Source of the DNA: a virus
Taxonomy: Duplodnaviria; Caudoviricetes
Direction: 5' to 3' (one strand)
DNA length: 64,000 nt
IMG/VR virus record: IMGVR_UViG_2974601178_000001
Location: 32,001-96,000 of that record
Shown here: one piece after another, positions 1,633 to 32,210 of the stretch
Numbering within the stretch: the first letter of the stretch is position 1
Layout: each line of letters starts with the position of its first letter
Program-made: the position numbers and the translations under genes
Notes under the pieces: generated by a model
The model's database searches: none
Seen by the model: only the letters and a program-made list of their open reading frames with translations
What the model was told of the DNA's origin: nothing

Positions 1633-2899
1633 TTGAGTATAAACTATGTTACTAAAAGTAATGGTGATGTTGTAGAGTTTTCTCCTGACAAATTGAACCG
1701 TATGGCAGAATGGGGAGCAACAATAGGAATTTGTTGGTCAGGGTTAGTTTTTGATGCATTACGTAAAGTAGAAGATAAATGTTCAACACAAGAATTACAA
1801 CAAGCCTTAATTGATGCATGTTCTGACAAGAAAACCCCTGAACATTTAGATATGGCAGCAAGGTTATATTTAGGGTCTTTGTATAAAACTGTACACGGGG
1901 GTTTCGAAGAGAGACCATCTTTACCAGATTTCTATTATAAAATGACATCTGCTGGTGTATGGGAGTACATGGATTATGATGACTCTGATTTAGATTATCT
2001 TGATAGTGTTTTGGATAATGACAAAGATTTGAATTATAAGTTATCTACAGTAAAACAAATAAGTACAAAATATGCAAAGAAGTTAAATGGAGTGGTTTGT
2101 GAAACACCCCAATATGCTTTCATGGGTATTGCAATGAAGGTGATGGAAACACAACCTGATGAGCGCAGGTTAGAAGATGTTGAGAAACTGTATACATACT
2201 TAAGTGATTTGAAGATTAATATGCCAACACCTTTCTTAGCAGGTTTGAGAACTTCTTTTAAAGGGTTTGCTAGTTGTTGTGTAATTAAGTCAGAAGATAC
2301 TGCAGACTCTATTGAGAATTTAGTACATGCTGCTTACAAGTTTACTAATGCGTCATCTGGTATTGGTTGTACTTTAACTACCCGTTCTGTTAAAGATCCC
2401 ATAAGAGCGCAACCCGATAAACATACAGGAAAGATACCTTACTATCGCTATTTACAAGGAGCGGTTAAGTCTACTAAGCAGGAAGTGAGAGGTGGTGGTG
2501 CAACAGTCCATTACACTGTACTTGACCCAGAAGTAGAAACCTTGTTACGATTGAAGCATCCCACCACAATAGAAGATAAGCGTATACGTGGTCTTGATTA
2601 TTCAATGGGGGCAACAAAATTATTAGCTGAAAAAGCTTCTAGGAAAGAACCTTGGATGTTAGTGTCTTATTATGATTCTCCTGAGTTATATGAAGCACAT
2701 TTTAAAGGTTATGACGAGTTTAAGAAAGCTTATCAAGCTTATGAAAAGAGTGAAGGCAAGAAGAAGTTTGTTAACTCTTTTGAAGTATTAAAACTATTCT
2801 TAACTCAACGTGGTGACACAGGCCGTAAATACCACACTTGGTTAGATGAAATGAATACGCATACGCCGTTTAAAGATACAATATATAGTAGTAATCTGT
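1633..2899 (+). CDS. nrdA: Ribonucleotide reductase class Ia alpha subunit, exon 1
   Basis: N-terminal ATP-cone-like region, ETPQ, PTP, ASCC, RGGG; ends ...IYSSNL plus first base (T) of the Cys codon of SNLCxEI. Confidence 0.93.
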
Positions 2900-3120
2900 G
2901 AAATGACGCAGCCTTACGTGGGAACACGTATTGAATAATTGGGTGAATTGACTGGAAAGCTAAGAGGATTACCTTATGCCAATCAGCAGCGAAGCTCTAA
3001 GGATAGAGAACGTTCAGAGACTAGTGGAGTTTGAGAACTTAATTACCACATTAGCGCCCAACACCTAGAACAGGTGATGATATAGTCCGACACTTGTAGA
3101 AATGCAAGATTAACATTAAG
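2900..3120 (+). ncRNA. Group I self-splicing intron (221 nt, no ORF) in nrdA
   Basis: 5' splice site after U2899 with P1 CTGT/GCAG (U-G pair); P10 TGAC pairs with exon-2 GTCA; core elements GAATTGACTGGAA, AATCAGCAG, GTTCAGAGACTA, GATATAGTCC; terminal G3120; removal restores SNL-C-QEI in frame. Confidence 0.92.
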
Positions 3121-4648: not shown

Positions 4649-5986
4649 GTGATAGATAATGTATTGAATCGTTCTAACACAGGATGGAAAACAGGAAAGT
4701 ATCCTTTATTTATGGGAGAGGAGTTGGGTTTACATGATACCATGAACAGACCTTACCCAGAATTATTCAAACTGTTCAAAAAGCTTAAAAGTTTAGATTG
4801 GGCAGAAGATGAGATAGATTTAGAAAAGTCAAGGTTAGATTTTGCAAGTTGTGATAAAAATAGTTATGATGTTATGATAAAAACTTTATCATTTCAATAT
4901 GAAGCGGATAGCCTTGCATCTAGATCTATAATCGCGTTGTTTGCCCCTTTCATTTCTAACAGTGATTTAAGTCAGATGATGTTGAAGTGGAGTGAGAATG
5001 AATCCCTTCATGCATTAACGTACTCTGAGATAATTAGGCAATGTGTATCTAACCCAGATGATATATTTAATGAGATACTATCTGATAAGAATATAACTGA
5101 CCGTTCAGATGTTATTGCTAAAAGTTTTTCTAAGTTAAAAGTACTTGGTGCTAAGTATTCTTTAGATAAAAACTCAGTATCCTCAGAAGAAGTACGAGAG
5201 ACTTTACTTTTAAGTTTGGTAGCTTTATATTGTCTAGAGGCAATGGAATTTATGGCTTCTTTCGCATGTACTTTTAGTCTAGCGGAAAGAGATTTATTCG
5301 AGGGTGTAGCAAGCTTAGTTCAGAAGATAATGGTAGACGAAACAATCCACACTCAAATGGATGAAGCTATTATTGATATTCTGTTTAAAGAATCGGAATG
5401 GAAAGCTACTTTTGAGAAGATTAAACCTCAAGTACAAGAGTTAGTGGATAGCGTTTATCATCAAGAGGTTTCTTGGGCGGAGTATATATTCAGTGAAGGG
5501 CGTAGTGTACTTGGCTTGACATCAGGATTACTTAAGGATTGGGTCACATACCGAACGGATGCCGTGTACAATAAACTAGGTCTGGATAAACCATACACTG
5601 TTGTAGAGGAAAATCCTTTACCTTGGATGGATAAGTGGTTAGATATAGATTCTAATCAACAGTCAGCGCAAGAAGTTAGTTTGAACAATTACCGATTAAA
5701 CTCTGTTATTGATGATACTAGTGAAGATATCGTTTATGACTTTGGAAGCAGGGAGAACAGTCTACCTTCTGATGTCGTGGTTTATACAAAAGAGTCTTGT
5801 CCTTTTTGCGATAAGGTTAAGCAGTTTCTTAAAGATAAAGGAATTAATGTAACAGAAGTTGATGTAGAAAGGGTTTATGCAAAGCAAAGTTTGATAAACA
5901 AAGGGCTAACCACAGTACCTCAAGTATTTACTCAAGAGGGAAATTACTTAGGTGATTGTACTTCTATCATTAACAAATATTCATAA
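4649..5986 (+). CDS. nrdB: Ribonucleotide reductase beta subunit with C-terminal glutaredoxin domain
   Basis: ExxHxxxY (ESLHALTY), LEAMEF, DETIH iron ligands; C-terminal VYTKESCPFC...TVPQVF. Confidence 0.92.
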   Translation: MIDNVLNRSNTGWKTGKYPLFMGEELGLHDTMNRPYPELFKLFKKLKSLDWAEDEIDLEKSRLDFASCDKNSYDVMIKTLSFQYEADSLASRSIIALFAPFISNSDLSQMMLKWSENESLHALTYSEIIRQCVSNPDDIFNEILSDKNITDRSDVIAKSFSKLKVLGAKYSLDKNSVSSEEVRETLLLSLVALYCLEAMEFMASFACTFSLAERDLFEGVASLVQKIMVDETIHTQMDEAIIDILFKESEWKATFEKIKPQVQELVDSVYHQEVSWAEYIFSEGRSVLGLTSGLLKDWVTYRTDAVYNKLGLDKPYTVVEENPLPWMDKWLDIDSNQQSAQEVSLNNYRLNSVIDDTSEDIVYDFGSRENSLPSDVVVYTKESCPFCDKVKQFLKDKGINVTEVDVERVYAKQSLINKGLTTVPQVFTQEGNYLGDCTSIINKYS

Positions 5987-5997
5987 AAGGAGAAACC

Positions 5998-6297
5998 ATG
6001 ACACAAGAATCAAATGGCTCAAATTATCAAGAAGATTACACCAAATTGGAAGCAATCATTATTAAAATGTTAGAACACGTTTCAGCATTGGATAACGTTG
6101 ACCAAGAATTACAGACCACTTTAAACGATTTCGTTTATGAAGTTGTTGGTCAAGTTAAGTACCTTTTATCGATGTATGACCAGAATATCCAAAAGTATAA
6201 TCACACTTTGGAAAATATGGACACTGTTATCGATGGTTTGGATTGTTCAAGAGGGGTGAAAGCTTCTCTGAAAGCAACCTTGCCGCAGAAAGGTTGA
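5998..6297 (+). CDS. Hypothetical protein
   Basis: 99 aa, SD AGGAG. Confidence 0.7.
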   Translation: MTQESNGSNYQEDYTKLEAIIIKMLEHVSALDNVDQELQTTLNDFVYEVVGQVKYLLSMYDQNIQKYNHTLENMDTVIDGLDCSRGVKASLKATLPQKG

Positions 6298-6557: not shown

Positions 6558-7277
6558 TTGGACACTATGACAAAAAAGAAAAGAAATATTGTTAAAAGGA
6601 AAACTGCTTCTGACGATATAGTTAATTTCTCAGAAGGTAATATCCAGTTTAAATATTATCCTTACACTGGGGAAGTCTTTTGTCCATCTTCTCACTCCCT
6701 TGTGTTAACAGCACATCACTTTGGGGTAAGAGGGTTTGAGATTTCAGAAAGTAGAAGTGAGATACATAAGAATATGTTATTTGTTCATCCTCCTACTGAT
6801 ATGGAAAAAGTGGAAGCCTTTAGGTTAATTAAGAAAACCTTGCGTGAGTTGAAAGATGATCGTAAACAGAGGCGAGCAGAACTTATTGCTAATAATATTA
6901 ACAATAGGACAGGTAATCCTATAACATGGGCTACTATCAATGCTTATATTCACAAGCTTAAAACAGGTGATTTATCAAGGGAGAAAGTTGCCAAATGGTT
7001 TAATACTTTTAACGTGGAAGATGACAAACATTTAAAAGCTAAGCACACCACTGTTATAGAAGTGTCTACTCGTAGTAAAGCTACTATTATTAAGATGGGA
7101 TTGGACATTTTGAAAAGGTTGTTCAAAGAAGGTAAGCTTAGACGTTTGACAGAAGAACAATATCAAGCTAAGATGGAAGTATATGCTAAAGAAAAAGCCG
7201 ATAAGCAAAAAGAAAGTGCACAAGAGGGAGAAGAGGAAACGATTGTTAAAACTGGCGAAAGAACGGAGGAAAAATAG
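6558..7277 (+). CDS. Hypothetical basic protein
   Basis: 239 aa ORF abutting endolysin. Confidence 0.7.
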   Translation: MDTMTKKKRNIVKRKTASDDIVNFSEGNIQFKYYPYTGEVFCPSSHSLVLTAHHFGVRGFEISESRSEIHKNMLFVHPPTDMEKVEAFRLIKKTLRELKDDRKQRRAELIANNINNRTGNPITWATINAYIHKLKTGDLSREKVAKWFNTFNVEDDKHLKAKHTTVIEVSTRSKATIIKMGLDILKRLFKEGKLRRLTEEQYQAKMEVYAKEKADKQKESAQEGEEETIVKTGERTEEK

Positions 7278-7858
7278 TGAAGAATAGTTATAAAAATGCA
7301 CCTCCTTTTGTGCAGGAAATAGTTGACCATATTATTGATGTGGAAGGGGGCTATGTTGATAACAAGGATGATTCTGGTGGTGCAACCAAGTATGGTGTCA
7401 CAGAAAAAGTGGCAAGAGCTAATGGTTATGAAGGACATATGTCAGAATTACCAATAACCTTTGCACAAGATTTATATGTCACCGAATATTACCTTGCACC
7501 TAAGTTTAACCTTGTTGCAGAAGTGTCAGAAACTTTAGCAAAAGAAATGATGGACTCTGGGGTGAATGTAGGTTATCGTACTCCTATAAAATGGTTTCAA
7601 CGTTTACTAAATGTATCCAATTGTAAGCAGAAGTATTACAAAGATATAGAAGTGGATGGATATTTAGGTAGTAAGTCTATTGGTGCATATACAGCTTTGT
7701 GCAAAAGAAGGGGAGAACTTGAAGCAGAGAGATACATGTTTAATGGGTTGAATAGTTTTCAGCAAGTGTATTATGTTGAATTGGCGGAACGTAGGGAGAA
7801 GGATGAGACTTTTGTTTATGGGCAAATTGTAAACAGAGTGGAATATCTTCCATTTTAG
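7277..7858 (+). CDS. Endolysin, glycoside hydrolase family 108 with peptidoglycan-binding domain
   Basis: EGGYVDNxxDxGGATKYGVT; DSGVNxG; QRLLN...VDGxLG. Confidence 0.9.
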   Translation: MKNSYKNAPPFVQEIVDHIIDVEGGYVDNKDDSGGATKYGVTEKVARANGYEGHMSELPITFAQDLYVTEYYLAPKFNLVAEVSETLAKEMMDSGVNVGYRTPIKWFQRLLNVSNCKQKYYKDIEVDGYLGSKSIGAYTALCKRRGELEAERYMFNGLNSFQQVYYVELAERREKDETFVYGQIVNRVEYLPF

Positions 7859-7923
7859 AGGAGGGTTGACAGTTTAAAGGTTAAGTAGTTTTTTCATAAT
7901 AATTATTAATTAAGAGGTGATAT

Positions 7924-8730
7924 ATGGCTCGTAAGAAACGTAATAAAGGTAACAATACACAATCAGTAACACGACACCCCAATAGAGTAGATAAGCACAC
8001 CTCACGTACTCAGAAAGGTATGAAGGATATTGCAGAAGACCACAAAGTTAATAATGAAAGTTACTCTTTAGATTGGTTTTCTCCTACAGAAGGGCAACAG
8101 GATGTTATTCGCAGTATGATTGAGAATGAGCTTACATTAGTGCAAGCTTCAAGCGGATCAGGGAAATCCACTACGGTTATTTGGCAAGCACTTAAGGATT
8201 TAAAATCAGGTTATTACAAAAGTATTTTATTTGTTAAAACCCCTAATGAATCCTCAGACGACCTTATAGGGTTTTTACCTAGTTCAGCAGAAGACAAACT
8301 TTCTGTACATTTTGAAGCTACTCGTAGTGTATTCCACCAGTTTATGACTAAAGAAAAACTAGTTATGGAAGAGAAAAAGGGGAGAATTAATTTTAAGATA
8401 CCTAACTTTATACAAGGTGCTACTTTTGAAAACACTTTAATGATTCTTGATGAAAGCCAGTCTCTATCACCTAATACAATGAAGTTAGTAATGGAACGTG
8501 TAGGAAAAGGTAGTAAGATTGTGGTTTGTGCTGATAAAAGACAACGATACTCATATAGAAAACGTGAGGATGGTTTCACTAACTTTGTGAATATGGTTAC
8601 TGCAGTTGATGAAGATGGTAGGTACTCTAATGTAGATACTATCGGTTATGTGGAGATGCCAGCATCAGCTAATATGCGTTCTGATTTATCAAGATTAATT
8701 GTAACGTTGTATGAAGAGGATGATGAATAG
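7924..8730 (+). CDS. phoH: PhoH-family ATPase
   Basis: SGSGKS Walker A, IGFLP, QGATF, ILDESQ, RVGxGSK. Confidence 0.9.
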   Translation: MARKKRNKGNNTQSVTRHPNRVDKHTSRTQKGMKDIAEDHKVNNESYSLDWFSPTEGQQDVIRSMIENELTLVQASSGSGKSTTVIWQALKDLKSGYYKSILFVKTPNESSDDLIGFLPSSAEDKLSVHFEATRSVFHQFMTKEKLVMEEKKGRINFKIPNFIQGATFENTLMILDESQSLSPNTMKLVMERVGKGSKIVVCADKRQRYSYRKREDGFTNFVNMVTAVDEDGRYSNVDTIGYVEMPASANMRSDLSRLIVTLYEEDDE

Positions 8731-8747
8731 ACCCTTCGGGGTCTTTT
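8729..8747 (+). terminator. Rho-independent terminator
   Basis: AGACCC-TTCG-GGGTCT followed by T run. Confidence 0.75.
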
Positions 8748-8759
8748 ATAAGGAGAGGT

Positions 8760-9539
8760 ATGAAGATTACAAAACGGAGAGCTAAAGATAGGGTAGGTGA
8801 GGTTTTTGGCAGGTTGACTGTAGAGGATTGTTATAAAAAAGGTGGACGATCTTGGTATAAATGTAGTTGTTGTTGTGGTAATAAAGATTTCCATGTTGTA
8901 TACCACTCTGTGACAGGAGGTAAGACATCATCTTGCGGGTGCTCTAGATACTCAAAGAAGATTAAAAGCCACGGTATGTCTAAAGATAAAGTTTATAGGA
9001 CATGGATCTCAATGAAAGGTAGGATTAACTGTAAAACACATACATCATACCCTTACTATGGGGGCAGAGGTATATCTTACTGTGAAAAATGGGAAAGTTT
9101 TGAAGGGTTTTTTGAGGACATGGGGATTCCTCCTTCAGAAGACCACACCCTAGATAGGATAGATAATAATAAGGATTACTCTAAAAGTAATTGTAGGTGG
9201 GAAACCAGATCTGTGCAGATGAAGAATCAAGGTAAAAGATCTATACTGACAGCTTCGAGTCGTTATAAGGGAGTAATAGTAGATGCAGGAGGTAACTGTG
9301 ATGTTTGTGTTACATTAAAAGGGGTGTCTATAAGGTTCAGGGTAAGTAAAGATGAAGAGTTAGCTGCAAAGTACTTTAATTATTTAAGTAAGTATCTATA
9401 CTCCGACCAGATAGCCCTGAATAACACCGAAGATTTAACGTTAACCGTACAACAAGCTGAGCTTTTAAATGCTAAAGTTGAAGATAAATTTTATTATTCT
9501 CAAGAATTGAGAGAATATTCACCTATAAGAGGAAAATAG
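8760..9539 (+). CDS. Putative HNH-type homing endonuclease
   Basis: FGRLTV...CxCxCG, SCGC, YGGRGI, TLDRIDNNKDYxxxNCRW, SRYKGV. Confidence 0.8.
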   Translation: MKITKRRAKDRVGEVFGRLTVEDCYKKGGRSWYKCSCCCGNKDFHVVYHSVTGGKTSSCGCSRYSKKIKSHGMSKDKVYRTWISMKGRINCKTHTSYPYYGGRGISYCEKWESFEGFFEDMGIPPSEDHTLDRIDNNKDYSKSNCRWETRSVQMKNQGKRSILTASSRYKGVIVDAGGNCDVCVTLKGVSIRFRVSKDEELAAKYFNYLSKYLYSDQIALNNTEDLTLTVQQAELLNAKVEDKFYYSQELREYSPIRGK

Positions 9540-9540
9540 T

Positions 9541-10611
9541 ATGCAAGATAACCATTTCGTAGAGACATTTAAAGTTCAATCTTACCCTAGTACATTAGCT
9601 TATGATATTTTTATTGATGAGACTATTAGCTCTCCAGAGTACTACCGTAATGTTATTAATGTACTTAACCGTGCAGCAGAAGGTGATGTCCTAAATATAT
9701 ACCTTAACACTGTTGGAGGTTACGTTAGTTCATCTTCTGCTATTACTGCCGCAATGGACCAATGTAAAGGTCATATAGTAGTACATATGGCCGCGGAAGT
9801 ATGCTCTGCAGGGACAATGATTGCACTACACGGAAATGAATGGGTTGTAGGTGATGGTATTTGTTTTATGTGCCACAATATCAGTTTTAGTTGTGGGGGT
9901 AGTGCGGAGAAGGTTAAAGATCACCACGATTTCATTCAGGATTGGAACAAAAGTTTACTGGAACGTGAATACAGTGGTTTCCTTACACCAGAGGAAATTA
10001 GTAATATGTTCACTAATGGCAAGGAGTATTGGTTTAATGCAGAAGAGGTTAAATCTCGTCTTAAAAACTTTGTAGACTACCGTGAAGGTTCATACAAAGA
10101 AGCCATGAATCAAATGTTCGACCAACAAATTGCCGCAGAAGACGAAGCCCTTGACGCAGGATTGAATCACCTTCTAACAAGTGGAAAGGTAACTCAGGCA
10201 GAAGTAGATGCCATTAAGAAAATCACTCCACTTTTAGATGAAGCTTTTGAATCTGGTGAAATTGATTTGGACAACCTTCCTGAAAGTGTGGAAACATTAT
10301 CAGAAGATGTATCTGACTATTCAAATGCTTTTGCCATCAACGTCAAAGATGAAATTGCGGCGATATGTATGTACACTTTAGATGAAGAAGGTATTATTTC
10401 AGAAGTGGTGTTAGATATTGCAGAATATGATGATGAGGTTATTGTTTCTAATATTTGGCTAGAAGATAACCTTGACCGAAGTGAGCTTATCACTTTAGCA
10501 AAAGATATTGGTGTCAAAGGAGTTGCACATAATACTAAAGACTCTGGTAAAATTATAAATAAGATTATTGATTATGTGGATTCTCTTATTGAAAAAGAAG
10601 AGAATAATTAA
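9541..10611 (+). CDS. ClpP-like serine protease with acidic C-terminal extension
   Basis: INT/LNTxGG, CSAGTMI (catalytic Ser), FMCH, EYWFxAEE. Confidence 0.8.
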   Translation: MQDNHFVETFKVQSYPSTLAYDIFIDETISSPEYYRNVINVLNRAAEGDVLNIYLNTVGGYVSSSSAITAAMDQCKGHIVVHMAAEVCSAGTMIALHGNEWVVGDGICFMCHNISFSCGGSAEKVKDHHDFIQDWNKSLLEREYSGFLTPEEISNMFTNGKEYWFNAEEVKSRLKNFVDYREGSYKEAMNQMFDQQIAAEDEALDAGLNHLLTSGKVTQAEVDAIKKITPLLDEAFESGEIDLDNLPESVETLSEDVSDYSNAFAINVKDEIAAICMYTLDEEGIISEVVLDIAEYDDEVIVSNIWLEDNLDRSELITLAKDIGVKGVAHNTKDSGKIINKIIDYVDSLIEKEENN

Positions 10612-10723
10612 TTTCATTAAATGCTTAAATAACATTTGACACTATAACACCCTTTTGCTAATATTTACTTATTGGTGAGAGGGTGTTTTTATATCCGATG
10701 GTAAATTTTAATTAAGAGGTACT

Positions 10724-10933
10724 ATGAGAAAACGAGATAAGATTAAAAGTATAACACCTTTTATATTTGGAGCACTTTGGGCAATTGTGTTCTGGTTAAT
10801 GGGAGTCACTACTGAAGGAGGAGATTCACTATTAGTTGTAGGTGGATGGGTAGCTTTGGTGTTAATAAGTGTCCTTGTCACAGATGAAGGTATTGACCTT
10901 TTCGACAAGAACGATAATGAAGAAGATGATTAA
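10724..10933 (+). CDS. Small two-TM membrane protein
   Basis: Two hydrophobic segments; SD GAGG; upstream TTGACA-17-TAATAT promoter. Confidence 0.65.
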   Translation: MRKRDKIKSITPFIFGALWAIVFWLMGVTTEGGDSLLVVGGWVALVLISVLVTDEGIDLFDKNDNEEDD

Positions 10934-10952
10934 ATTTTAAGAAGGGGTTATT

Positions 10953-11219
10953 ATGAAACAGTATACTCACGTAAATCAAAATCACATCAGGAAGAATATA
11001 AAACTTCCGCCAGAAGAAAGATTACCTGTTGTGACAAGTAAAACTTATAAAGAAAATAACTATTTCAACAATGCGGAATTAGTTTGCAAAGATACTGGTA
11101 AAGTTGTGGCAAAGGTGGTATATTCTCCTGATAAACCGTTGAGCTGCGGTGCTCGTCTTTTCATACTTACAGATACAGATGATATTGAAATTAGGGAGAT
11201 GACTAATGGTGATAGTTGA
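10953..11219 (+). CDS. Conserved phage hypothetical protein
   Basis: HVNQxxIRxN...VVYSPDKPLSCGA pattern typical of a widespread phage family. Confidence 0.7.
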   Translation: MKQYTHVNQNHIRKNIKLPPEERLPVVTSKTYKENNYFNNAELVCKDTGKVVAKVVYSPDKPLSCGARLFILTDTDDIEIREMTNGDS

Positions 11220-11442
11220 TATACACTTAAGCAGATTAGGTATTATTTCAGGTGATTCCAAACGTTTATTGGAACCCTATATAGATAGTAGGTTATTTTC
11301 ACAAAGGAAATCTTATGATGAATACACCATTGACACTGATAGTGTTAAAATTAGAATGGACATCAAAGATTTATTTATACTTTCAGAAAAGTTTATTGTC
11401 ACTGTGGGGAATGGTTGGGTAGAATTGGAGGAAATAATTTGA
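11206..11442 (+). CDS. Hypothetical protein
   Basis: 78 aa, overlapping neighbours. Confidence 0.6.
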   Translation: MVIVDIHLSRLGIISGDSKRLLEPYIDSRLFSQRKSYDEYTIDTDSVKIRMDIKDLFILSEKFIVTVGNGWVELEEII

Positions 11443-12023
11443 ATAAAAGTTTAATGTTTAGCAGCGACAACCAAAAATGGGCAACTAGAGAAACCTGTTT
11501 TAGAAGCATAGAACAGCAATTAGGACGTTCCTACAATGTTGACCCCTGCTGCGAAGAATCCACCGCAAAATGTAAGTTGTTCATCACACAAGAAGATGAC
11601 TTATTTAAAGTGGATAGTATACGAGAGAAGTTTAACCTTCCTAAAGTGGAAATGTTTGTCAATCCGCCTTATGGAACAATGCAGAAGAAGTTTGTTGAAA
11701 AGGTAATTACTTTGTGTGAAGAAGATAACGTTGTTGCGGATATATTAATTCCTTCTCGCACAGATACACAACTTTTCCACGATGTTATTCTTCCTAAAGC
11801 AAATGCTGTATATTTTATAAAAGGTCGTATCACATTCGGGGATGATGCTTATTGGCAGTGGGTTTGGGAACAAGAATTTATTGATGGAAAGAAGAATTCC
11901 CTTTATCAAAAGTTTGGTAAGATGAATCCAGCACCATTCCCCTCAATGGTAGTGTCTGTTGGTGGAAAGGGTATTTTCCAAATGAGTACATTACAATTAG
12001 AGAAGGAGAAATATGATGGATGA
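11439..12023 (+). CDS. Phage DNA N6-adenine methyltransferase (phage Dam-like family)
   Basis: WxT, DPCC, FVNPPY, LIPSRTDT, FIKGRI; start likely TTG 11439 after GGAGG. Confidence 0.85.
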   Translation: MNKSLMFSSDNQKWATRETCFRSIEQQLGRSYNVDPCCEESTAKCKLFITQEDDLFKVDSIREKFNLPKVEMFVNPPYGTMQKKFVEKVITLCEEDNVVADILIPSRTDTQLFHDVILPKANAVYFIKGRITFGDDAYWQWVWEQEFIDGKKNSLYQKFGKMNPAPFPSMVVSVGGKGIFQMSTLQLEKEKYDG

Positions 12024-23976: not shown

Positions 23977-25511
23977 TGGTGCTCTCCTTTAATTTATCCA
24001 CCTTATACATATATTATACATGTAAACTAATGTTATGTCAAGTGATGTTATAACGTATCAAAATATGTCGCAGCTTATACTTGTTAAAAGAGTCACTTTC
24101 TAAAAAGCCAATCCATTTTCATACACCAATCCTTGTAGAACTTTTCTCCCCTTTTGATAATATTTTACCTTTGTATTAAATTAACCATTTCTATAATTTC
24201 CATTCTACCAAAATATCCCTTATACAATCGGTGTATAAATTTCCAAAATACACTAACCTCCTTCAAAATAATACCATTCCAAAAGGAGCACTTCAATCAA
24301 AATATCCCACTTTAAAATATCATTATGGAATAAGGGTGTAACCTTTTGTTATAAGGTGTGTTGGGGATAGGGTGTTTTTGTTGAATGGGTAATTTTATAA
24401 AAAATTTTAAATCTACTTCTCGAAATGGGGGTGTACCTTTGGTATATATCTGTGGGAAAATATTTAACTACTTGATATAAAAGGGGTTATAGGTTGGAAA
24501 AGGTTATTTTGGGAAATATTAGAACTACTTCCGTTACTTGTTTAACGCTTCACCTCATACTAAAGTACCACTTCTGAGAATATCAAAATAATTTCCCAAT
24601 AGTCCACTTCCCACAATAATAACATCTTATTAACAAGTGATACCCTTATAACAAAACCTTTCAATAAATGGATTCCTTATTCCAAAAGGTAATTCAACAT
24701 AATATATCTTATAGGAAGTCATTACAATTGTTACAATATAACACTTCCCAAAGTATTATCCCCTTTTGTTTTATAATACCAATTACTACAATAAAACAAA
24801 GATTAACCCACTTTATGCAATTATTACATTGTGTTAAAAGTATTAACATTTAATCAATATTTATTCAATTAGTGTGGGAAGTGGGATAATTTTTGTAAAG
24901 TGGGGTAACTTGTGTTACTTTGTAACAAAGGGATGAGGTAGTGGGGTAGTTTGTGGCATTGCGTTTTTAAGGGGTTAAAAACCTCAACCCCAAAATCAAC
25001 CCCCCTTTCCCTCACATCCACCTATAACCTAATCAACTAACATTTGTTTACACGTAAACAAGAATAATCACCATTTGACACAACGTGTCGAAGTATCCCC
25101 TATATTGTTACTATGTAACAAAATCAAGCCCTATAAGCTTTTCAAGCTAATTGATAATCCTTATCATTACATAAAAACACCTTGATCAATGTAATAAAGG
25201 ATCACCCTTTTGATATAACATAACATATCAATTTTTATTATGTATCTATCTTAATATATAACTAATGCTTATAAGCTATCATTAATTATTGTTACATTAT
25301 TACATATTCTTATAATCAATATAGTGTATGTTTACTATAACTAGTTGTTATAATTATAAATCCTTGTAAATTGTTATATTATCACACTAAATTTTGTTGT
25401 TTAAGAGTGGCACAATCTTTGCTAATAGATACCCTTTTGTTGTATAGCAGATTAATACAACAAAGTAAACCCTTTAGCATAAATAAAAGCCTAATTAAAA
25501 TCTACTCACAA

Positions 25512-25838
25512 TATGAATATTTATTCAAAAATGGTGCATATTAGCTAAAACCCTCTTTGTTGATAACAATTATCATTTATTCATGATATTGCATAAATAA
25601 GCACATATTTGCATAAAAGTGGTGTATGCATACAACGTGCCATCTTGGTTTGTGTGGTTATTTGCTCCTGTGAGCCATTCTGAGAAGGGTTTATTTTAGC
25701 TAAACAAGTGTACTGGGTAGCATTGCATATGCTCACAGGGGTGATTCTGTTGATACAAGCTGGAGGCCTTTATTTATAAGGGATTCCGAGGGTGCAAGGT
25801 ATTTTTAGGTGAAATGGTGTTATGCATAAAAGTGCATA
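25512..25838. promoter_or_regulatory. ARG-box-like sites
   Basis: 25514 TGAATATTTATTCA; 25590 TGCATAAATAAGCA; 25823 TGCATAAAAGTGCA. Confidence 0.55.
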
Positions 25839-25874
25839 GGATTTTGGCACGTGGTGGGGTAAATTTTAGGCAAT

Positions 25875-25905
25875 AAAAAGCCACCTTTTACAGTGGCTTT
25901 ATTTT
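25875..25905 (-). terminator. Terminator ending the minus-strand early block
   Basis: AAAAAGCCAC-N8-GTGGCTTT. Confidence 0.7.
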
Positions 25906-25936
25906 AAATCTGTTAACATTTTCGCTCAGGTAGTTT

Positions 25937-26302
25937 TTAAGCTAATTTTTCAATATCCCAGTTATCTTCCTCATAACTCGCATCTCTAGAAACAACTAAC
26001 GATTGACCACCCATTTTAACAACCCCGTACAAGTTGCCATCTTTTTCAACAATGTTTTTAACTGTTCGTTTTATCATATGTGTGTAATTATCCACCTGTG
26101 GGAAAGAGTTAGTACTGATATTAAATTTAACCATTTCAGACCATGTTAAGCTAACCTCTTGATTTTTCATGTTAGTTGTTTTTACTTCAGTGTTATTAAT
26201 TTTACCGTGTTTATCTTCAAAAGCTTTTTTATTTGCTTCAAATTCTGCATTCATTTTAGCAATGTTTAATAGTGAATTGTGAGCTTGTGATAATAAATCC
26301 AT
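25937..26302 (-). CDS. Hypothetical early protein
   Basis: Likely start ATG 26302 (MDLLSQ...) after GGAG; Fur box just upstream. Confidence 0.65.
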   Translation of the reverse strand: MDLLSQAHNSLLNIAKMNAEFEANKKAFEDKHGKINNTEVKTTNMKNQEVSLTWSEMVKFNISTNSFPQVDNYTHMIKRTVKNIVEKDGNLYGVVKMGGQSLVVSRDASYEEDNWDIEKLA

Positions 26303-27043
26303 GATATTCTCCAATTGATAATGATTCTCATTTAGAAGGTGCTTTTTGCCTTTTCCTTCCCACCCCTTAATAATAGCAAACCTGTAGAATAACACAACCC
26401 CTTTTAAGCAAATAAATCACACTTTTATCAAATTAATTCCAATTGATAACTATTATCATTACCTCCCACCAATACACAATTTTTATAAGGTGTCAACTTT
26501 TTGAAAAAGGATTAGATTTGCTAAAACGTCCTGTATGCAATTCTAAGAGGTGTTAACCTACAACCCTACCACTAGTATTAAAACATTTACTTTTTAGCAT
26601 ACAGCGATTTTATAAAAAGATGGCATTCTAATTGCATACAAAAATTTATGATATTCTGGCATACTATTTGCTACGTGTGCAACACTTTTGTAAATGGTAA
26701 CTGTTATCAAATGATAATAGTTCTCATCAACACATAAAAACATTATAACCAAAATCAAATCCTTTATAACAAAACGTTATATGTGAAAAATGGCTTTTGT
26801 GGTAGTGTTTACCCCCAGTTGAAAAGGTTACTTAGTTAAACAAGAATTACTCGCATTTGATAATAATTCTTATTTATAAAGATTTTTAACTATTTGATCA
26901 ATGTGCCTAGTTCCCTCTATAAGCCCCGCTAAGCTCCTCAAATTAATATTAATACAATCGTATAACATTGTTATCAAAAACGCTTCCAGTTCCTTTACAA
27001 TGAATATAACAGCCAGTTCAAACAAGTTTTAATAGTGTTAAAA

Positions 27044-31515: not shown

Positions 31516-31742
31516 AAGTTTAAATTAATCCACAAAAGCCCTTGCAATTAAAAGTGTAAGGGCTTATACTTCCTAACATAGTAAATTGGATTGATTGAAG
31601 ATATACAGGCCCCCTGCTTGTCATTCCTGCGAGCGCCTGTATGCGATTTTAAGAGGGCGTTTTAATAAAGGTAGTTTTGCACAAGTGGATTGAGATCACC
31701 TTATACGGTGTTATACATGCTGAAGGGTAGCGTTTAGAAGAG

Positions 31743-31790
31743 TTACACACAGGCTTATTTAGTTATCCACAGGTAGAAAAGTTATCCACA
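31743..31790 (+). promoter_or_regulatory. Three co-oriented DnaA boxes
   Basis: TTACACACA 31743, TTATCCACA 31763, TTATCCACA 31782. Confidence 0.75.
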
Positions 31791-32210
31791 ATAAAATTAA
31801 TTTAATTTATTTTTAAAAAAGTATTGTAATCTTATATTAGGTGCGTATAATGGAATACATAGAAACAAGCATGCGAACTTTAGCGAAAGCGGGAACGGTG
31901 GAGAATAAAACACCGAGGCTGCGTGAAATTTAAAATGTTATGATATAACATAACAACTATTTTGCTATAATATAACATCTCATATATTTTGATACAGTAT
32001 AATATGGTATTGAAAATGTAATTCGGTTTTTGGGAGATGATTCTAAGTTTTATGAAAATTTTTTGGGTCTCGGGTAAATGATTTTTCTACCCAGTTCTTA
32101 AGTTGTTGATTTTAAAGAATATTATTTTCGTATCGAGTTCTAAATGATTTTTCATAAAATTAGAAGAACCTGTTAACAAGAATGACTTCTATAACAGGTT
32201 CTTATTTTAA

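What the first reader, a model, noticed from the sequence alone, without database searches (positions are those of the whole stretch)
24300..27000. Non-coding array of many different host DNA-binding-protein sites (possible decoy sponge or injection ratchet)
Seen within ~2.5 kb containing only one credible gene: seven Fur-box-like sites, four sigma54 -24/-12 sites, ARG-box-like sites, two perfect GTTAC-N3-GTAAC palindromes, an IHF consensus (24465-24477), and unassigned palindromes TTGTTTAC-AC-GTAAACAA (25044), GACAC-AAC-GTGTC (25077) and ATAAC-AAAAC-GTTAT (~26766). Most are not positioned in front of any gene. Known: these match gammaproteobacterial regulator consensus sequences, and T5 has a host-protein-binding, repeat-rich segment next to its first-injected DNA. 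Inference: the phage carries a purpose-built landing pad for host regulators. It could titrate them as genomes replicate (derepressing iron uptake and arginine synthesis, sequestering sigma54), coat and protect incoming DNA, or pull or pause DNA entry. I know of no described multi-regulator decoy array of this kind.
Basis: partly seen in the sequence, partly recalled or inferred. Interest (0 to 1): 0.85.

Follow-up and report, generated by a model that had tools for sequence, protein, structure and literature searches.

The report
Phage docking array for host regulators
A 3-kb, almost gene-free stretch of a marine Pseudoalteromonas phage is packed with conserved binding sites for host proteins (Fur, sigma-54 RNA polymerase, ArgR, Zur-like). 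Part of it is shared with the first-injected, non-coding DNA of T5-like phages, so it is a real host-factor control or docking region whose purpose is still unsettled.

Summary
In window 23977-27043 the only credible gene is 25937-26302 (-).

**What is there**
- Seven Fur boxes: six within 4 mismatches of the 19-bp consensus, against two in the other 117 kb.
- The genome's only three perfect sigma-54 promoters, plus a fourth with one mismatch.
- Two ARG boxes, four Zur-like boxes and several 15-bp dyads.
- IHF, CRP, matS, LuxO, NtrC, LexA and DnaA motifs are not enriched.

**Conservation**
- In a relative with 79% non-coding identity, sigma-54 sites are 64/64 identical, dyads 78/80 and ARG boxes 35/36.
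- Divergent relatives rebuild the same kit around the 121-aa gene.
- A Fur box always sits just before that gene's ribosome site and often just downstream of a sigma-54 promoter.

**Link to T5-like phages**
- A conserved ~75-nt element flanks the sigma-54 promoters. It recurs, with a sigma-54 promoter at the same spacing, in the left terminal repeat of T5-like Vibrio phage VF16.
- VF16 and T5 confine their Fur, LexA and DnaA boxes (VF16 also sigma-54 promoters) almost wholly to their terminal repeats, clustered in the non-coding repeat regions.

**Reading**
- Most likely (0.4): transcription control gated by host state.
- Rivals: a T5 injection-stop-like docking or roadblock site (0.25), or a deliberate sponge (0.15).
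- This scan's first-stage notes flagged the same stretch several times.

The parts
24013..24041 (-). Consensus sigma-70 promoter (12 of 12) for the 59-aa gene and the 526-aa DEAD/ResIII-like gene. It marks the left border of the tract.
24300..25130 (.). Left half of the tract. It is shared with HM1 (about 83%) and L006 (about 80%). It holds inverted GTGGGAA-type repeats, a nearly invariant core at 24755-24900, and 15-bp dyads.
24729..24743 (.). Zur-like box: 1 mismatch in the 15-bp core, 19 of 23 over the long consensus. It keeps a Zur-like match (2 mismatches) at the equivalent place in HM1.
24852..24869 (.). ARG-box-like site (1 mismatch) inside the invariant core.
24913..24927 (.). Perfect dyad with 6-nt arms and a 3-nt centre, of the GTTAC-N3-GTAAC type.
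25044..25061 (.). Perfect 8-2-8 palindrome, identical in HM1 and differing from L006 at one central base.
25077..25089 (.). 5-3-5 dyad. In HM1 both arms are changed and the dyad is kept.
25105..25121 (.). Perfect 7-3-7 dyad of the GTTAC-N3-GTAAC type.
25150..25168 (.). Fur box 1 (2 mismatches). It overlaps the -10 of a sigma-70-like promoter at 25139-25167 (+). It is degenerate in HM1.
25289..25316 (+). Sigma-70 promoter (10 of 12) overlapped by a Zur-like box at 25290-25304. Conserved in L006.
25408..25423 (+). Sigma-54 promoter P1, a perfect match, identical in L006. It is followed by a hairpin at about 25437-25463.
25512..25529 (.). Perfect 18-bp ARG box between the convergent sigma-54 promoters.
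25559..25577 (.). Fur box 2 (3 mismatches). It overlaps the -35 of a sigma-70-like promoter at 25560-25587 (+) and lies 65 nt downstream of the start of the minus-strand sigma-54 site.
25627..25642 (-). Sigma-54 promoter with one mismatch, convergent with P1 at a distance of 234 bp. Conserved in L006 and L007.
25665..25741 (.). Conserved element, copy A: 11-nt inverted arms around a 55-nt core. It lies 22 nt upstream of the minus-strand sigma-54 promoter.
25877..25900 (.). Two-way intrinsic terminator after the 121-aa gene. The stem differs in L006 and L007; in L007 it is re-formed perfectly by changes on both sides.
25937..26302 (-). The only gene, 121 aa. It has no Pfam or PHROG family and no fold match. 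Six homologues are known at 60-83% identity.
26314..26332 (.). Fur box 3 (2 mismatches), in the 5' leader of the gene. It lies between the sigma-70-like promoter (-35 at 26398-26393, -10 at 26375-26370, minus strand) and the ribosome site at 26312-26307. It is present at this place in all relatives.
26442..26460 (.). Fur box 4 (2 mismatches).
26520..26604 (.). Conserved element, copy B. It is homologous (78.7% over 75 nt) to non-coding DNA in the left terminal repeat of T5-like Vibrio phage VF16.
26621..26672 (+). Tandem perfect sigma-54 promoters P2 (26621-26636) and P3 (26657-26672). They fire away from element B and towards the early genes.
26693..26728 (.). Overlapping Fur boxes 5a and 5b, starting 36 and 53 nt after the start of P3.
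26765..26781 (.). 6-5-6 palindrome.
26856..26874 (.). Fur box 6 (4 mismatches). L006 has at least two more Fur boxes in this interval.
31516..32210 (.). Second non-coding zone of the same kind, outside the finding. It holds element copy C (about 31631-31755), two perfect DnaA boxes (31763, 31782) and Zur-like boxes at 31936, 31941 and 31963.

Best explanation
The tract is a conserved, essentially non-coding control region at the edge of the early-gene block. It is assembled from genuine binding sites for host proteins.

I think it most likely works as transcription control gated by host state. Host RNA polymerase starts here from sigma-70-type promoters and from sigma-54 promoters. Each sigma-54 promoter sits next to a conserved ~75-nt element that I read as its enhancer for an unidentified host activator. 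Fur sits on or just downstream of the start sites, and ArgR and a Zur-type repressor probably do so at their own boxes.

The 121-aa gene and several non-coding or antisense transcripts would then be made only when the host is iron-starved and the sigma-54 activator is on. One such transcript would run on the plus strand from about 25320 to the terminator at 25900.

**Shown:**
- The sites exist.
- They are enriched.
- They are conserved.
- They hold fixed positions relative to promoters and to the gene.

**Inferred:**
- Fur, RpoN and ArgR actually bind.
- The element is an enhancer.
- Transcripts are made.

Because phage DNA multiplies, the same sites must also soak up Fur and sigma-54 holoenzyme. 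I treat that as a side effect.
For: - **Enrichment.** Six Fur boxes lie in the tract against 2 in the other 117 kb. All three perfect sigma-54 promoters of the genome lie here.
- **Selection.** Against L006 the sigma-54 sites are 64/64 identical, ARG boxes 35/36, dyads 78/80 and Fur boxes 113/131. The non-coding background is 78.9% and the gene itself 75.4%.
- **Operator logic at the gene.** A Fur box lies between the promoter and the ribosome site of the 121-aa gene in the window, L006, L007, L008, L010 and L012.
- **Operator logic at sigma-54 promoters.** Fur boxes begin 21-39 nt after the start of a sigma-54 promoter match in three non-orthologous contexts: window/L006/L007 P3, L008/L010, and PH357.
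- **Overlap with sigma-70 hexamers.** Fur boxes 1 and 2 and one Zur-like box overlap sigma-70 hexamers.
- **Order in divergent relatives.** In L008, L010 and L012 the order is element, sigma-54 promoter, sigma-70 promoter, Fur box, gene, all in the gene's direction.
- **Element and promoter travel together.** The pair recurs with the same spacing in the unrelated phage VF16, where the promoter points at protein genes.
- **Host factors required.** The phage has no Fur, no sigma-54 activator and no RNA polymerase of its own.
Against: - Only one gene is available for about 20 sites.
- P2 and P3 point away from that gene and into the 3' end of the early genes. P1 and the minus-strand sigma-54 promoter are convergent.
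- HM1 and PH357 keep arrays of this kind without the 121-aa gene.
- In VF16 and T5 the equivalent sites lie between convergent genes, with nothing to regulate.
- No RNA family matches, and there is no covariation support for a structured RNA.
- No transcript data could be obtained.
- Fur boxes are only modestly better conserved than background: 86% against 79% versus L006, and 82% against 80% versus L007.
Confidence: 0.4

Rival explanations
1. T5-type docking site or roadblock. The array exists to be coated by stable host DNA binders: Fur, ArgR, Zur-type proteins, closed sigma-54 polymerase complexes and, in relatives, DnaA and LexA. The resulting bulky nucleoprotein complex at the border of the early region would pause or anchor incoming DNA, as proposed for the T5 injection stop signal. 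Alternatively it would block read-through into the next operon until the proteins are displaced.
For: - Element B is homologous to left-terminal-repeat DNA of T5-like Vibrio phages.
- In VF16 the perfect sigma-54 promoters, Fur box and LexA boxes occur only in the terminal repeats, and most DnaA boxes do too.
- In T5 the injection-stop candidate region (Repeat Region 3) holds a 19/20 LexA box at 9330, a DnaA box and three to four Fur boxes at 9473-9636. The unique 100 kb holds none.
- Those regions lie between convergent genes, so the sites there are orphans.
- Convergent sigma-54 pairs enclose repressor sites in both phages: 234 bp apart here, 255 bp in VF16.
- Davison's preprint 10.1101/866236 argues that host DnaA bound at such boxes stops T5 DNA entry.
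Against: - No homologue of the T5 pre-early proteins A1, A2 or dmp was found in this genome.
- The record's terminal repeat is only a ~120-bp assembly overlap, so nothing places this tract near a physical end.
- No DnaA or LexA boxes lie in 23977-27043.
- HM1, its relative, is a myovirus to my knowledge, and two-step injection is not known for that kind.
- The fixed Fur-after-promoter spacing and the enhancer-like element are not needed for a passive roadblock.
Confidence: 0.25
2. Purpose-built sponge. As genomes multiply, the sites titrate Fur, ArgR, the Zur-type repressor and the scarce sigma-54. This would derepress iron, zinc and arginine supply and silence sigma-54 responses, without any phage protein.
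For: - The sites are many, near consensus and orphan.
- L006 has added further Fur boxes by local duplication.
- All the identified transcription-factor sites (Fur, ArgR and Zur-like here; LexA in the T5-like relatives) belong to repressors, which is what a decoy would target. No CRP-type activator site is enriched.
- The phage encodes an iron-dependent ribonucleotide reductase small subunit.
- From established knowledge, multicopy Fur boxes derepress the Fur regulon; this is the principle of the FURTA assay.
Against: - Operator-like placement relative to promoters and to the gene.
- A conserved enhancer-like element at each sigma-54 promoter.
- In T5-like phages the equivalent sites sit on first-injected DNA.
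- Fur-box conservation is only slightly above background.
- My list of recognisable motifs is biased towards palindromic repressor sites.
Confidence: 0.15
3. Replication origin or another cis-acting DNA site. The left half would be an origin served by the neighbouring 526-aa DEAD/ResIII-like protein. Its features are inverted GTGGGAA-type repeats around an AT-rich, nearly invariant core at 24755-24900. The promoters would provide transcriptional activation.
For: - Inverted repeats flank an AT-rich tandem 11-mer.
- The core is almost identical in HM1 and L006.
- An SF2 helicase-like gene lies next to it in the window and PH357. L006 has a 407-aa YonV_C-domain gene in that position.
- A second zone with DnaA boxes and element copy C lies at 31516-32210.
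Against: - HM1 keeps the core but was not among the listed matches to the helicase-like gene, and a different gene lies to the left of its core.
- GC skew follows gene direction only.
- This does not explain the Fur and sigma-54 part.
Confidence: 0.08

Closest known systems
Untranslated repeat regions of the T5 left terminal repeat (Repeat Regions 1-3; candidate injection stop signal), as described by Davison, bioRxiv 10.1101/866236
   Same: [quoted passage not shown]
- By my scans T5 Repeat Region 3 carries Fur boxes like those here, plus a LexA box.
- The T5-like Vibrio phage VF16 shares the 75-nt element, the adjacent sigma-54 promoter and a Fur box.
   Different: - This phage has no A1, A2 or dmp homologues.
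- It has no demonstrated long terminal repeat.
- No DnaA-box pairs with a 52-bp spacer lie inside the tract.
- The tract carries a gene in its middle, and also ARG and Zur-like boxes.
- The function of the T5 region is itself only a hypothesis.
Fur-regulated accessory genes (morons) of temperate phages, for example sitABCD on lambdoid coliphages (PMC6969025)
   Same: A host Fur box placed in front of a phage-borne accessory gene, so that the gene joins the host iron regulon. The 121-aa gene fits this pattern.
   Different: - The phage here is, by its gene content, a large virulent-type phage.
- It has seven boxes rather than one, and most are not in front of a gene.
PeSL promoter and stem-loop cassettes of T4-type hyperplastic regions (PMC2839356, PMC4122927)
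   Same: Short conserved regulatory cassettes in a variable early region. They appear to move between phages and to flank small, changeable genes. L008 carries two extra small genes at the same place.
   Different: - PeSLs are sigma-70 early promoters joined to terminators.
- Here the cassettes are host repressor operators and sigma-54 promoters.
- Most units have no gene at all.

Membership tests
Gammaproteobacterial Fur operator (Fur box) | Match to the 19-bp palindromic consensus and to the 7-1-7 core | tested here: met
   Three sites have 2 mismatches, two have 3 and one has 4 out of 18 specified positions. Six sites lie within 2 mismatches of the 15-bp core.
Gammaproteobacterial Fur operator (Fur box) | Density above composition-matched background and above the rest of the genome | tested here: met
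   6 seen against 0.24 expected, and 2 in the other 117 kb.
Gammaproteobacterial Fur operator (Fur box) | Placement over or just after a promoter | tested here: met
   True for boxes 1, 2, 3 and 5, and for the relatives' boxes.
Gammaproteobacterial Fur operator (Fur box) | Binding by host Fur and iron-dependent repression | not testable with these tools
   Needs a gel-shift or ChIP experiment and expression assays.
Sigma-54 (RpoN) promoter | GG at -24 and GC at -12 with exact spacing and consensus flanks | tested here: met
   Three perfect matches and one with a single mismatch. 0.007 expected. 100% conserved in L006.
Sigma-54 (RpoN) promoter | Upstream enhancer bound by an activator ATPase | tested here: inconclusive
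   A conserved element lies 16-30 nt upstream of most of these promoters. It matches no activator site I know. The phage encodes no activator.
Sigma-54 (RpoN) promoter | RpoN-dependent transcript | not testable with these tools
T5-type terminal-repeat untranslated region / injection stop signal | Lies in a long terminal repeat at the end of the first-injected DNA | tested here: inconclusive
   The record is a circular assembly with a ~120-bp overlap. The physical ends are unknown.
T5-type terminal-repeat untranslated region / injection stop signal | Paired DnaA boxes in inverted repeats with a fixed spacer | tested here: not met
   There is no perfect DnaA box in 23977-27043 and no enrichment at one mismatch. 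A pair lies at 31763 and 31782, and four lie in L008 and L010.
T5-type terminal-repeat untranslated region / injection stop signal | Neighbouring pre-early genes dmp, A1 and A2 | tested here: not met
   tblastn of the VF16 proteins against the genome gave no hit.
T5-type terminal-repeat untranslated region / injection stop signal | Sequence homology to such a region | tested here: met
   78.7% identity over 75 nt to VF16, VPT02 and pVp-1, with the sigma-54 promoter in register.
Transcription-factor decoy (sponge) array | Sites that regulate nothing in cis | tested here: inconclusive
   True for many sites. It is not true for Fur box 3 or for the boxes after sigma-54 promoters.
Transcription-factor decoy (sponge) array | Measurable titration of the host factor | not testable with these tools
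   Needs FURTA-type reporter assays.
ARG box (ArgR operator) | 18-bp palindrome, normally as a pair of boxes 2-3 bp apart | tested here: inconclusive
   There is one perfect and one near-perfect single box, not a tandem pair. PH357 has several clustered boxes upstream of its sigma-54 promoter.

The most novel reading that the evidence does not exclude
Large virulent phages of gammaproteobacteria share a class of non-coding 'host-regulator docking arrays'. T5-like siphoviruses and this marine myovirus group both have them. The arrays are mobile cassettes of operators for host repressors (Fur, LexA, ArgR, Zur), DnaA boxes and sigma-54 promoters. They work through the bound host proteins themselves rather than through any encoded product, either as a checkpoint for DNA entry or read-through, or as a replication-amplified sponge. 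On this reading the long-unexplained T5 injection stop region would be one member, and its direct repeats C and palindrome D would be Fur and LexA operators.
Probability: 0.3. Interest if true: 0.9.

Novelty: new variant of a known kind. Interest (0 to 1): 0.7.

Why it matters
**If the sites are used**
- This would be a virulent phage that reads host iron status and a sigma-54 signal directly through host regulators.
- I found no description of sigma-54 promoters or Fur-box clusters in such phages in the searchable literature. That library is incomplete.

**Link to T5**
- The link makes an old open question testable: what stops DNA entry at 8% of the genome.
- The T5 stop region contains near-consensus Fur and LexA boxes as well as the DnaA boxes already noted. 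Infections of fur, lexA and dnaA hosts would give a direct test.

**Wider points**
- Cis-acting host-factor cassettes appear to move between unrelated phages.
- In iron-limited seas, iron-gated phage development would matter for infection dynamics.

Tried and rejected
**Searches and tests that gave nothing**
- Rfam at gathering and permissive thresholds gave nothing credible in the tract.
- Structured-RNA reading of the element and of 25595-25905:
  - Single-strand z-scores are modest on both strands (-2.9 and -2.4).
  - Consensus folding shows no net covariation.
  - The element's arms are not kept in L006 or VF16.
- Hidden small genes: no ORF of 12 aa or more with a ribosome site is conserved beyond nucleotide identity.
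- N4-type hairpin promoters for the 15-bp dyads: rejected, because the largest ORF is 847 aa and is a family A DNA polymerase.
- RNA hairpins for the dyads:
  - Unlikely. In PH357, 22 of them are perfect Watson-Crick.
  - The one-mismatch dyads there show no G-T excess.
- Phage-encoded Fur or sigma-54 activator: none.
- Host origin of the element:
  - A whole-collection scan with a 16-mer gave only scattered chance hits across phyla.
  - The pattern was too short to be informative, and the scan is spent.

**Attempts to find more relatives or data**
- More relatives: two viral-contig protein scans, two DNA-pattern scans and one metagenome scan added nothing beyond HM1.
- The record behind L006 could not be searched whole.
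- Function of the 121-aa protein:
  - No family and no atlas hit.
  - The model is of low confidence (pLDDT 65).
  - No fold match at E 0.001 or better.
I read the coordinates of the element arms and of the gene's promoter by hand.
Full report
**Setting.**
- The window is bases 32001-96000 of a 120,295-bp phage record. Its 'terminal repeat' is only a ~120-bp assembly overlap.
- The nearest named relatives are Pseudoalteromonas phages HM1 and PH357.
- The phage carries a family A DNA polymerase, an NrdB-glutaredoxin fusion and a Pif1-like helicase. It also carries polynucleotide kinase, RNA ligase, endonuclease V and several HNH endonucleases. It has no RNA polymerase of its own.
- The finding lies between the minus-strand early genes (27044 onwards) and a minus-strand operon. 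That operon is a 59-aa gene plus a 526-aa DEAD/ResIII-like gene, and it has a 12/12 consensus promoter at 24041-24013.

**Observation.**
- From 23977 to 27043 only one ORF has homologues: 25937-26302 (-), 121 aa.
- Fur boxes:
  - Six lie within 4 mismatches of the 19-bp consensus, and a seventh has 5.
  - The other 117 kb holds two. Shuffles expect 0.24.
- Sigma-54 promoters:
  - All three perfect sigma-54 promoters of the genome are here.
  - A fourth, with one mismatch, is on the other strand. Shuffles expect 0.007.
- Also above chance: one perfect and one near-perfect ARG box, two GTTAC-N3-GTAAC dyads and four Zur-like boxes.
- Not above chance: IHF, CRP, matS, LuxO, NtrC, LexA and DnaA motifs.

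**Conservation.**
- Homologues of the 121-aa protein led to five further kinds of locus.
- L006 comes from a 140.9-kb contig and aligns across the whole tract at 79% identity. Within that alignment:

| Feature | Identity to L006 |
|---|---|
| Sigma-54 sites | 64/64 |
| Dyads | 78/80 |
| ARG boxes | 35/36 |
| Fur boxes | 113/131 |
| 121-aa gene | 75% |

- The distant loci L008, L010 and L012 cannot be aligned outside the gene, yet they again carry Fur boxes and perfect sigma-54 promoters. L008 and L010 also carry four perfect DnaA boxes each.
- PH357 lacks the gene. At the same place it has a 2.2-kb unannotated gap containing:
  - a sigma-54 promoter directly followed by a Fur box;
  - clustered ARG boxes;
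  - 22 perfect 6-3-6 dyads where 1.45 are expected.
- HM1 keeps the left half at about 83% identity but lacks 25200-27040. One dyad there has both arms changed and stays a dyad.

**Anatomy.**
- A Fur box lies between the promoter and the ribosome site of the 121-aa gene in every relative.
- Fur boxes begin 21-39 nt after the start of a sigma-54 promoter match in three independent contexts.
- A conserved element of about 75 nt lies 16-30 nt upstream of the sigma-54 promoters, which always fire away from it:
  - It has three copies in the window: A and B in the tract, and C at about 31631.
  - In L008, L010 and L012 the order element, sigma-54 promoter, sigma-70 promoter, Fur box, gene runs in one direction.
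- P1 and the minus-strand sigma-54 promoter converge over 234 bp. That interval holds a hairpin, the perfect ARG box and Fur box 2.

**The T5 link.**
- A sensitive search matched element B to T5-like Vibrio phages.
- VF16, first non-coding gap of the left terminal repeat:
  - It holds, in order, a LexA box, the element, sigma-54 promoters in register with the window's, and DnaA boxes.
- VF16, second gap, at the repeat's inner end:
  - It holds a Fur box, a convergent pair of perfect sigma-54 promoters 255 bp apart, LexA boxes and DnaA boxes.
- VF16, whole record:
  - The Fur, LexA and sigma-54 sites occur nowhere else.
  - Four of the six distinct perfect DnaA boxes lie in the terminal repeat.
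- T5:
  - Repeat Region 3 is the candidate injection stop signal. It contains a 19/20 LexA box (annotated 'palindrome D'), a DnaA box and three to four Fur boxes (the 'direct repeat C' copies).
  - All Fur, LexA and perfect DnaA matches in the T5 record lie in the terminal repeats. The only one outside the non-coding repeat regions is a Fur-like match inside dmp.
- Davison's preprint describes the DnaA boxes and proposes that host DnaA stops DNA entry. It does not mention Fur or LexA.

**Interpretation.**
- Its purpose is not settled. I favour host-gated transcription control (0.4), for two reasons:
  - the operator-like placements;
  - the element and promoter pair that travels as a unit.
- A T5-like docking site or roadblock (0.25) explains the orphan sites, the convergent promoter pairs and the homology. 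It lacks any evidence on DNA ends or entry in this phage.
- A deliberate sponge (0.15) is physically plausible but is not needed to explain anything seen.
- An origin in the left half (0.08) remains possible.

**Novelty.** This is a new variant of a known kind: the T5-type untranslated repeat region. Its content (Fur, sigma-54, ArgR and Zur-like sites) is not described in what I could search.

Noticed in passing
L134 (T5, AY587007) 9330-9636 and 6045-6153: The T5 injection-stop candidate region holds a 19/20 LexA box (annotated 'palindrome D'). It also holds three to four Fur boxes, annotated as 'direct repeat C' copies and palindromes E, G and I. All Fur, LexA and perfect DnaA matches in the T5 record lie in the terminal repeats; the unique 100 kb has none. 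The preprint I could read mentions only the DnaA boxes.
   Followed up: partly
L133 (Vibrio phage VF16) 4340-4760 and 6610-7430: All perfect sigma-54 promoters, the only Fur box, all LexA boxes and 4 of the 6 distinct perfect DnaA boxes of this T5-like phage lie in two non-coding gaps of the terminal repeat. About a dozen copies of a GGTGCAAAT-type direct repeat follow.
   Followed up: partly
L002 (PH357) 6676-8844: A regular array of about 25 units of roughly 30 bp. Each has a loosely conserved A/T-rich leader and a different perfect 6-3-6 dyad. The dyads fall into four recurring families plus singles. Unit orientation flips twice. Binding proteins are unknown.
   Followed up: partly
window 31516-32210: A second gene-free zone. 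It holds a third copy of the conserved element (also present in HM1), two perfect DnaA boxes 19 nt apart, an AT-rich stretch, Zur-like boxes and sigma-70 promoters. It is a possible replication origin.
   Followed up: partly
window 2890-3109: Group I intron: Rfam RF00028, 90.7 bits, full length.
   Followed up: no
L002 (PH357) 9001-11640: The PH357 homologue of the 526-aa DEAD/ResIII-like gene matches in two pieces spread over 2.6 kb and is annotated as several small ORFs. The gene appears interrupted by an insertion.
   Followed up: no
L008 2382-2782: A distant relative carries two extra small genes (64 and 63 aa) between the sigma-54 promoter and the 121-aa gene. Each is associated with a Fur-like box, and neither has a homologue in the window. 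The site behaves as a hot spot for small-gene turnover.
   Followed up: partly
window 4712-5986: A ribonucleotide reductase small subunit fused to glutaredoxin. It is an iron-dependent enzyme in a phage that carries many Fur boxes.
   Followed up: no
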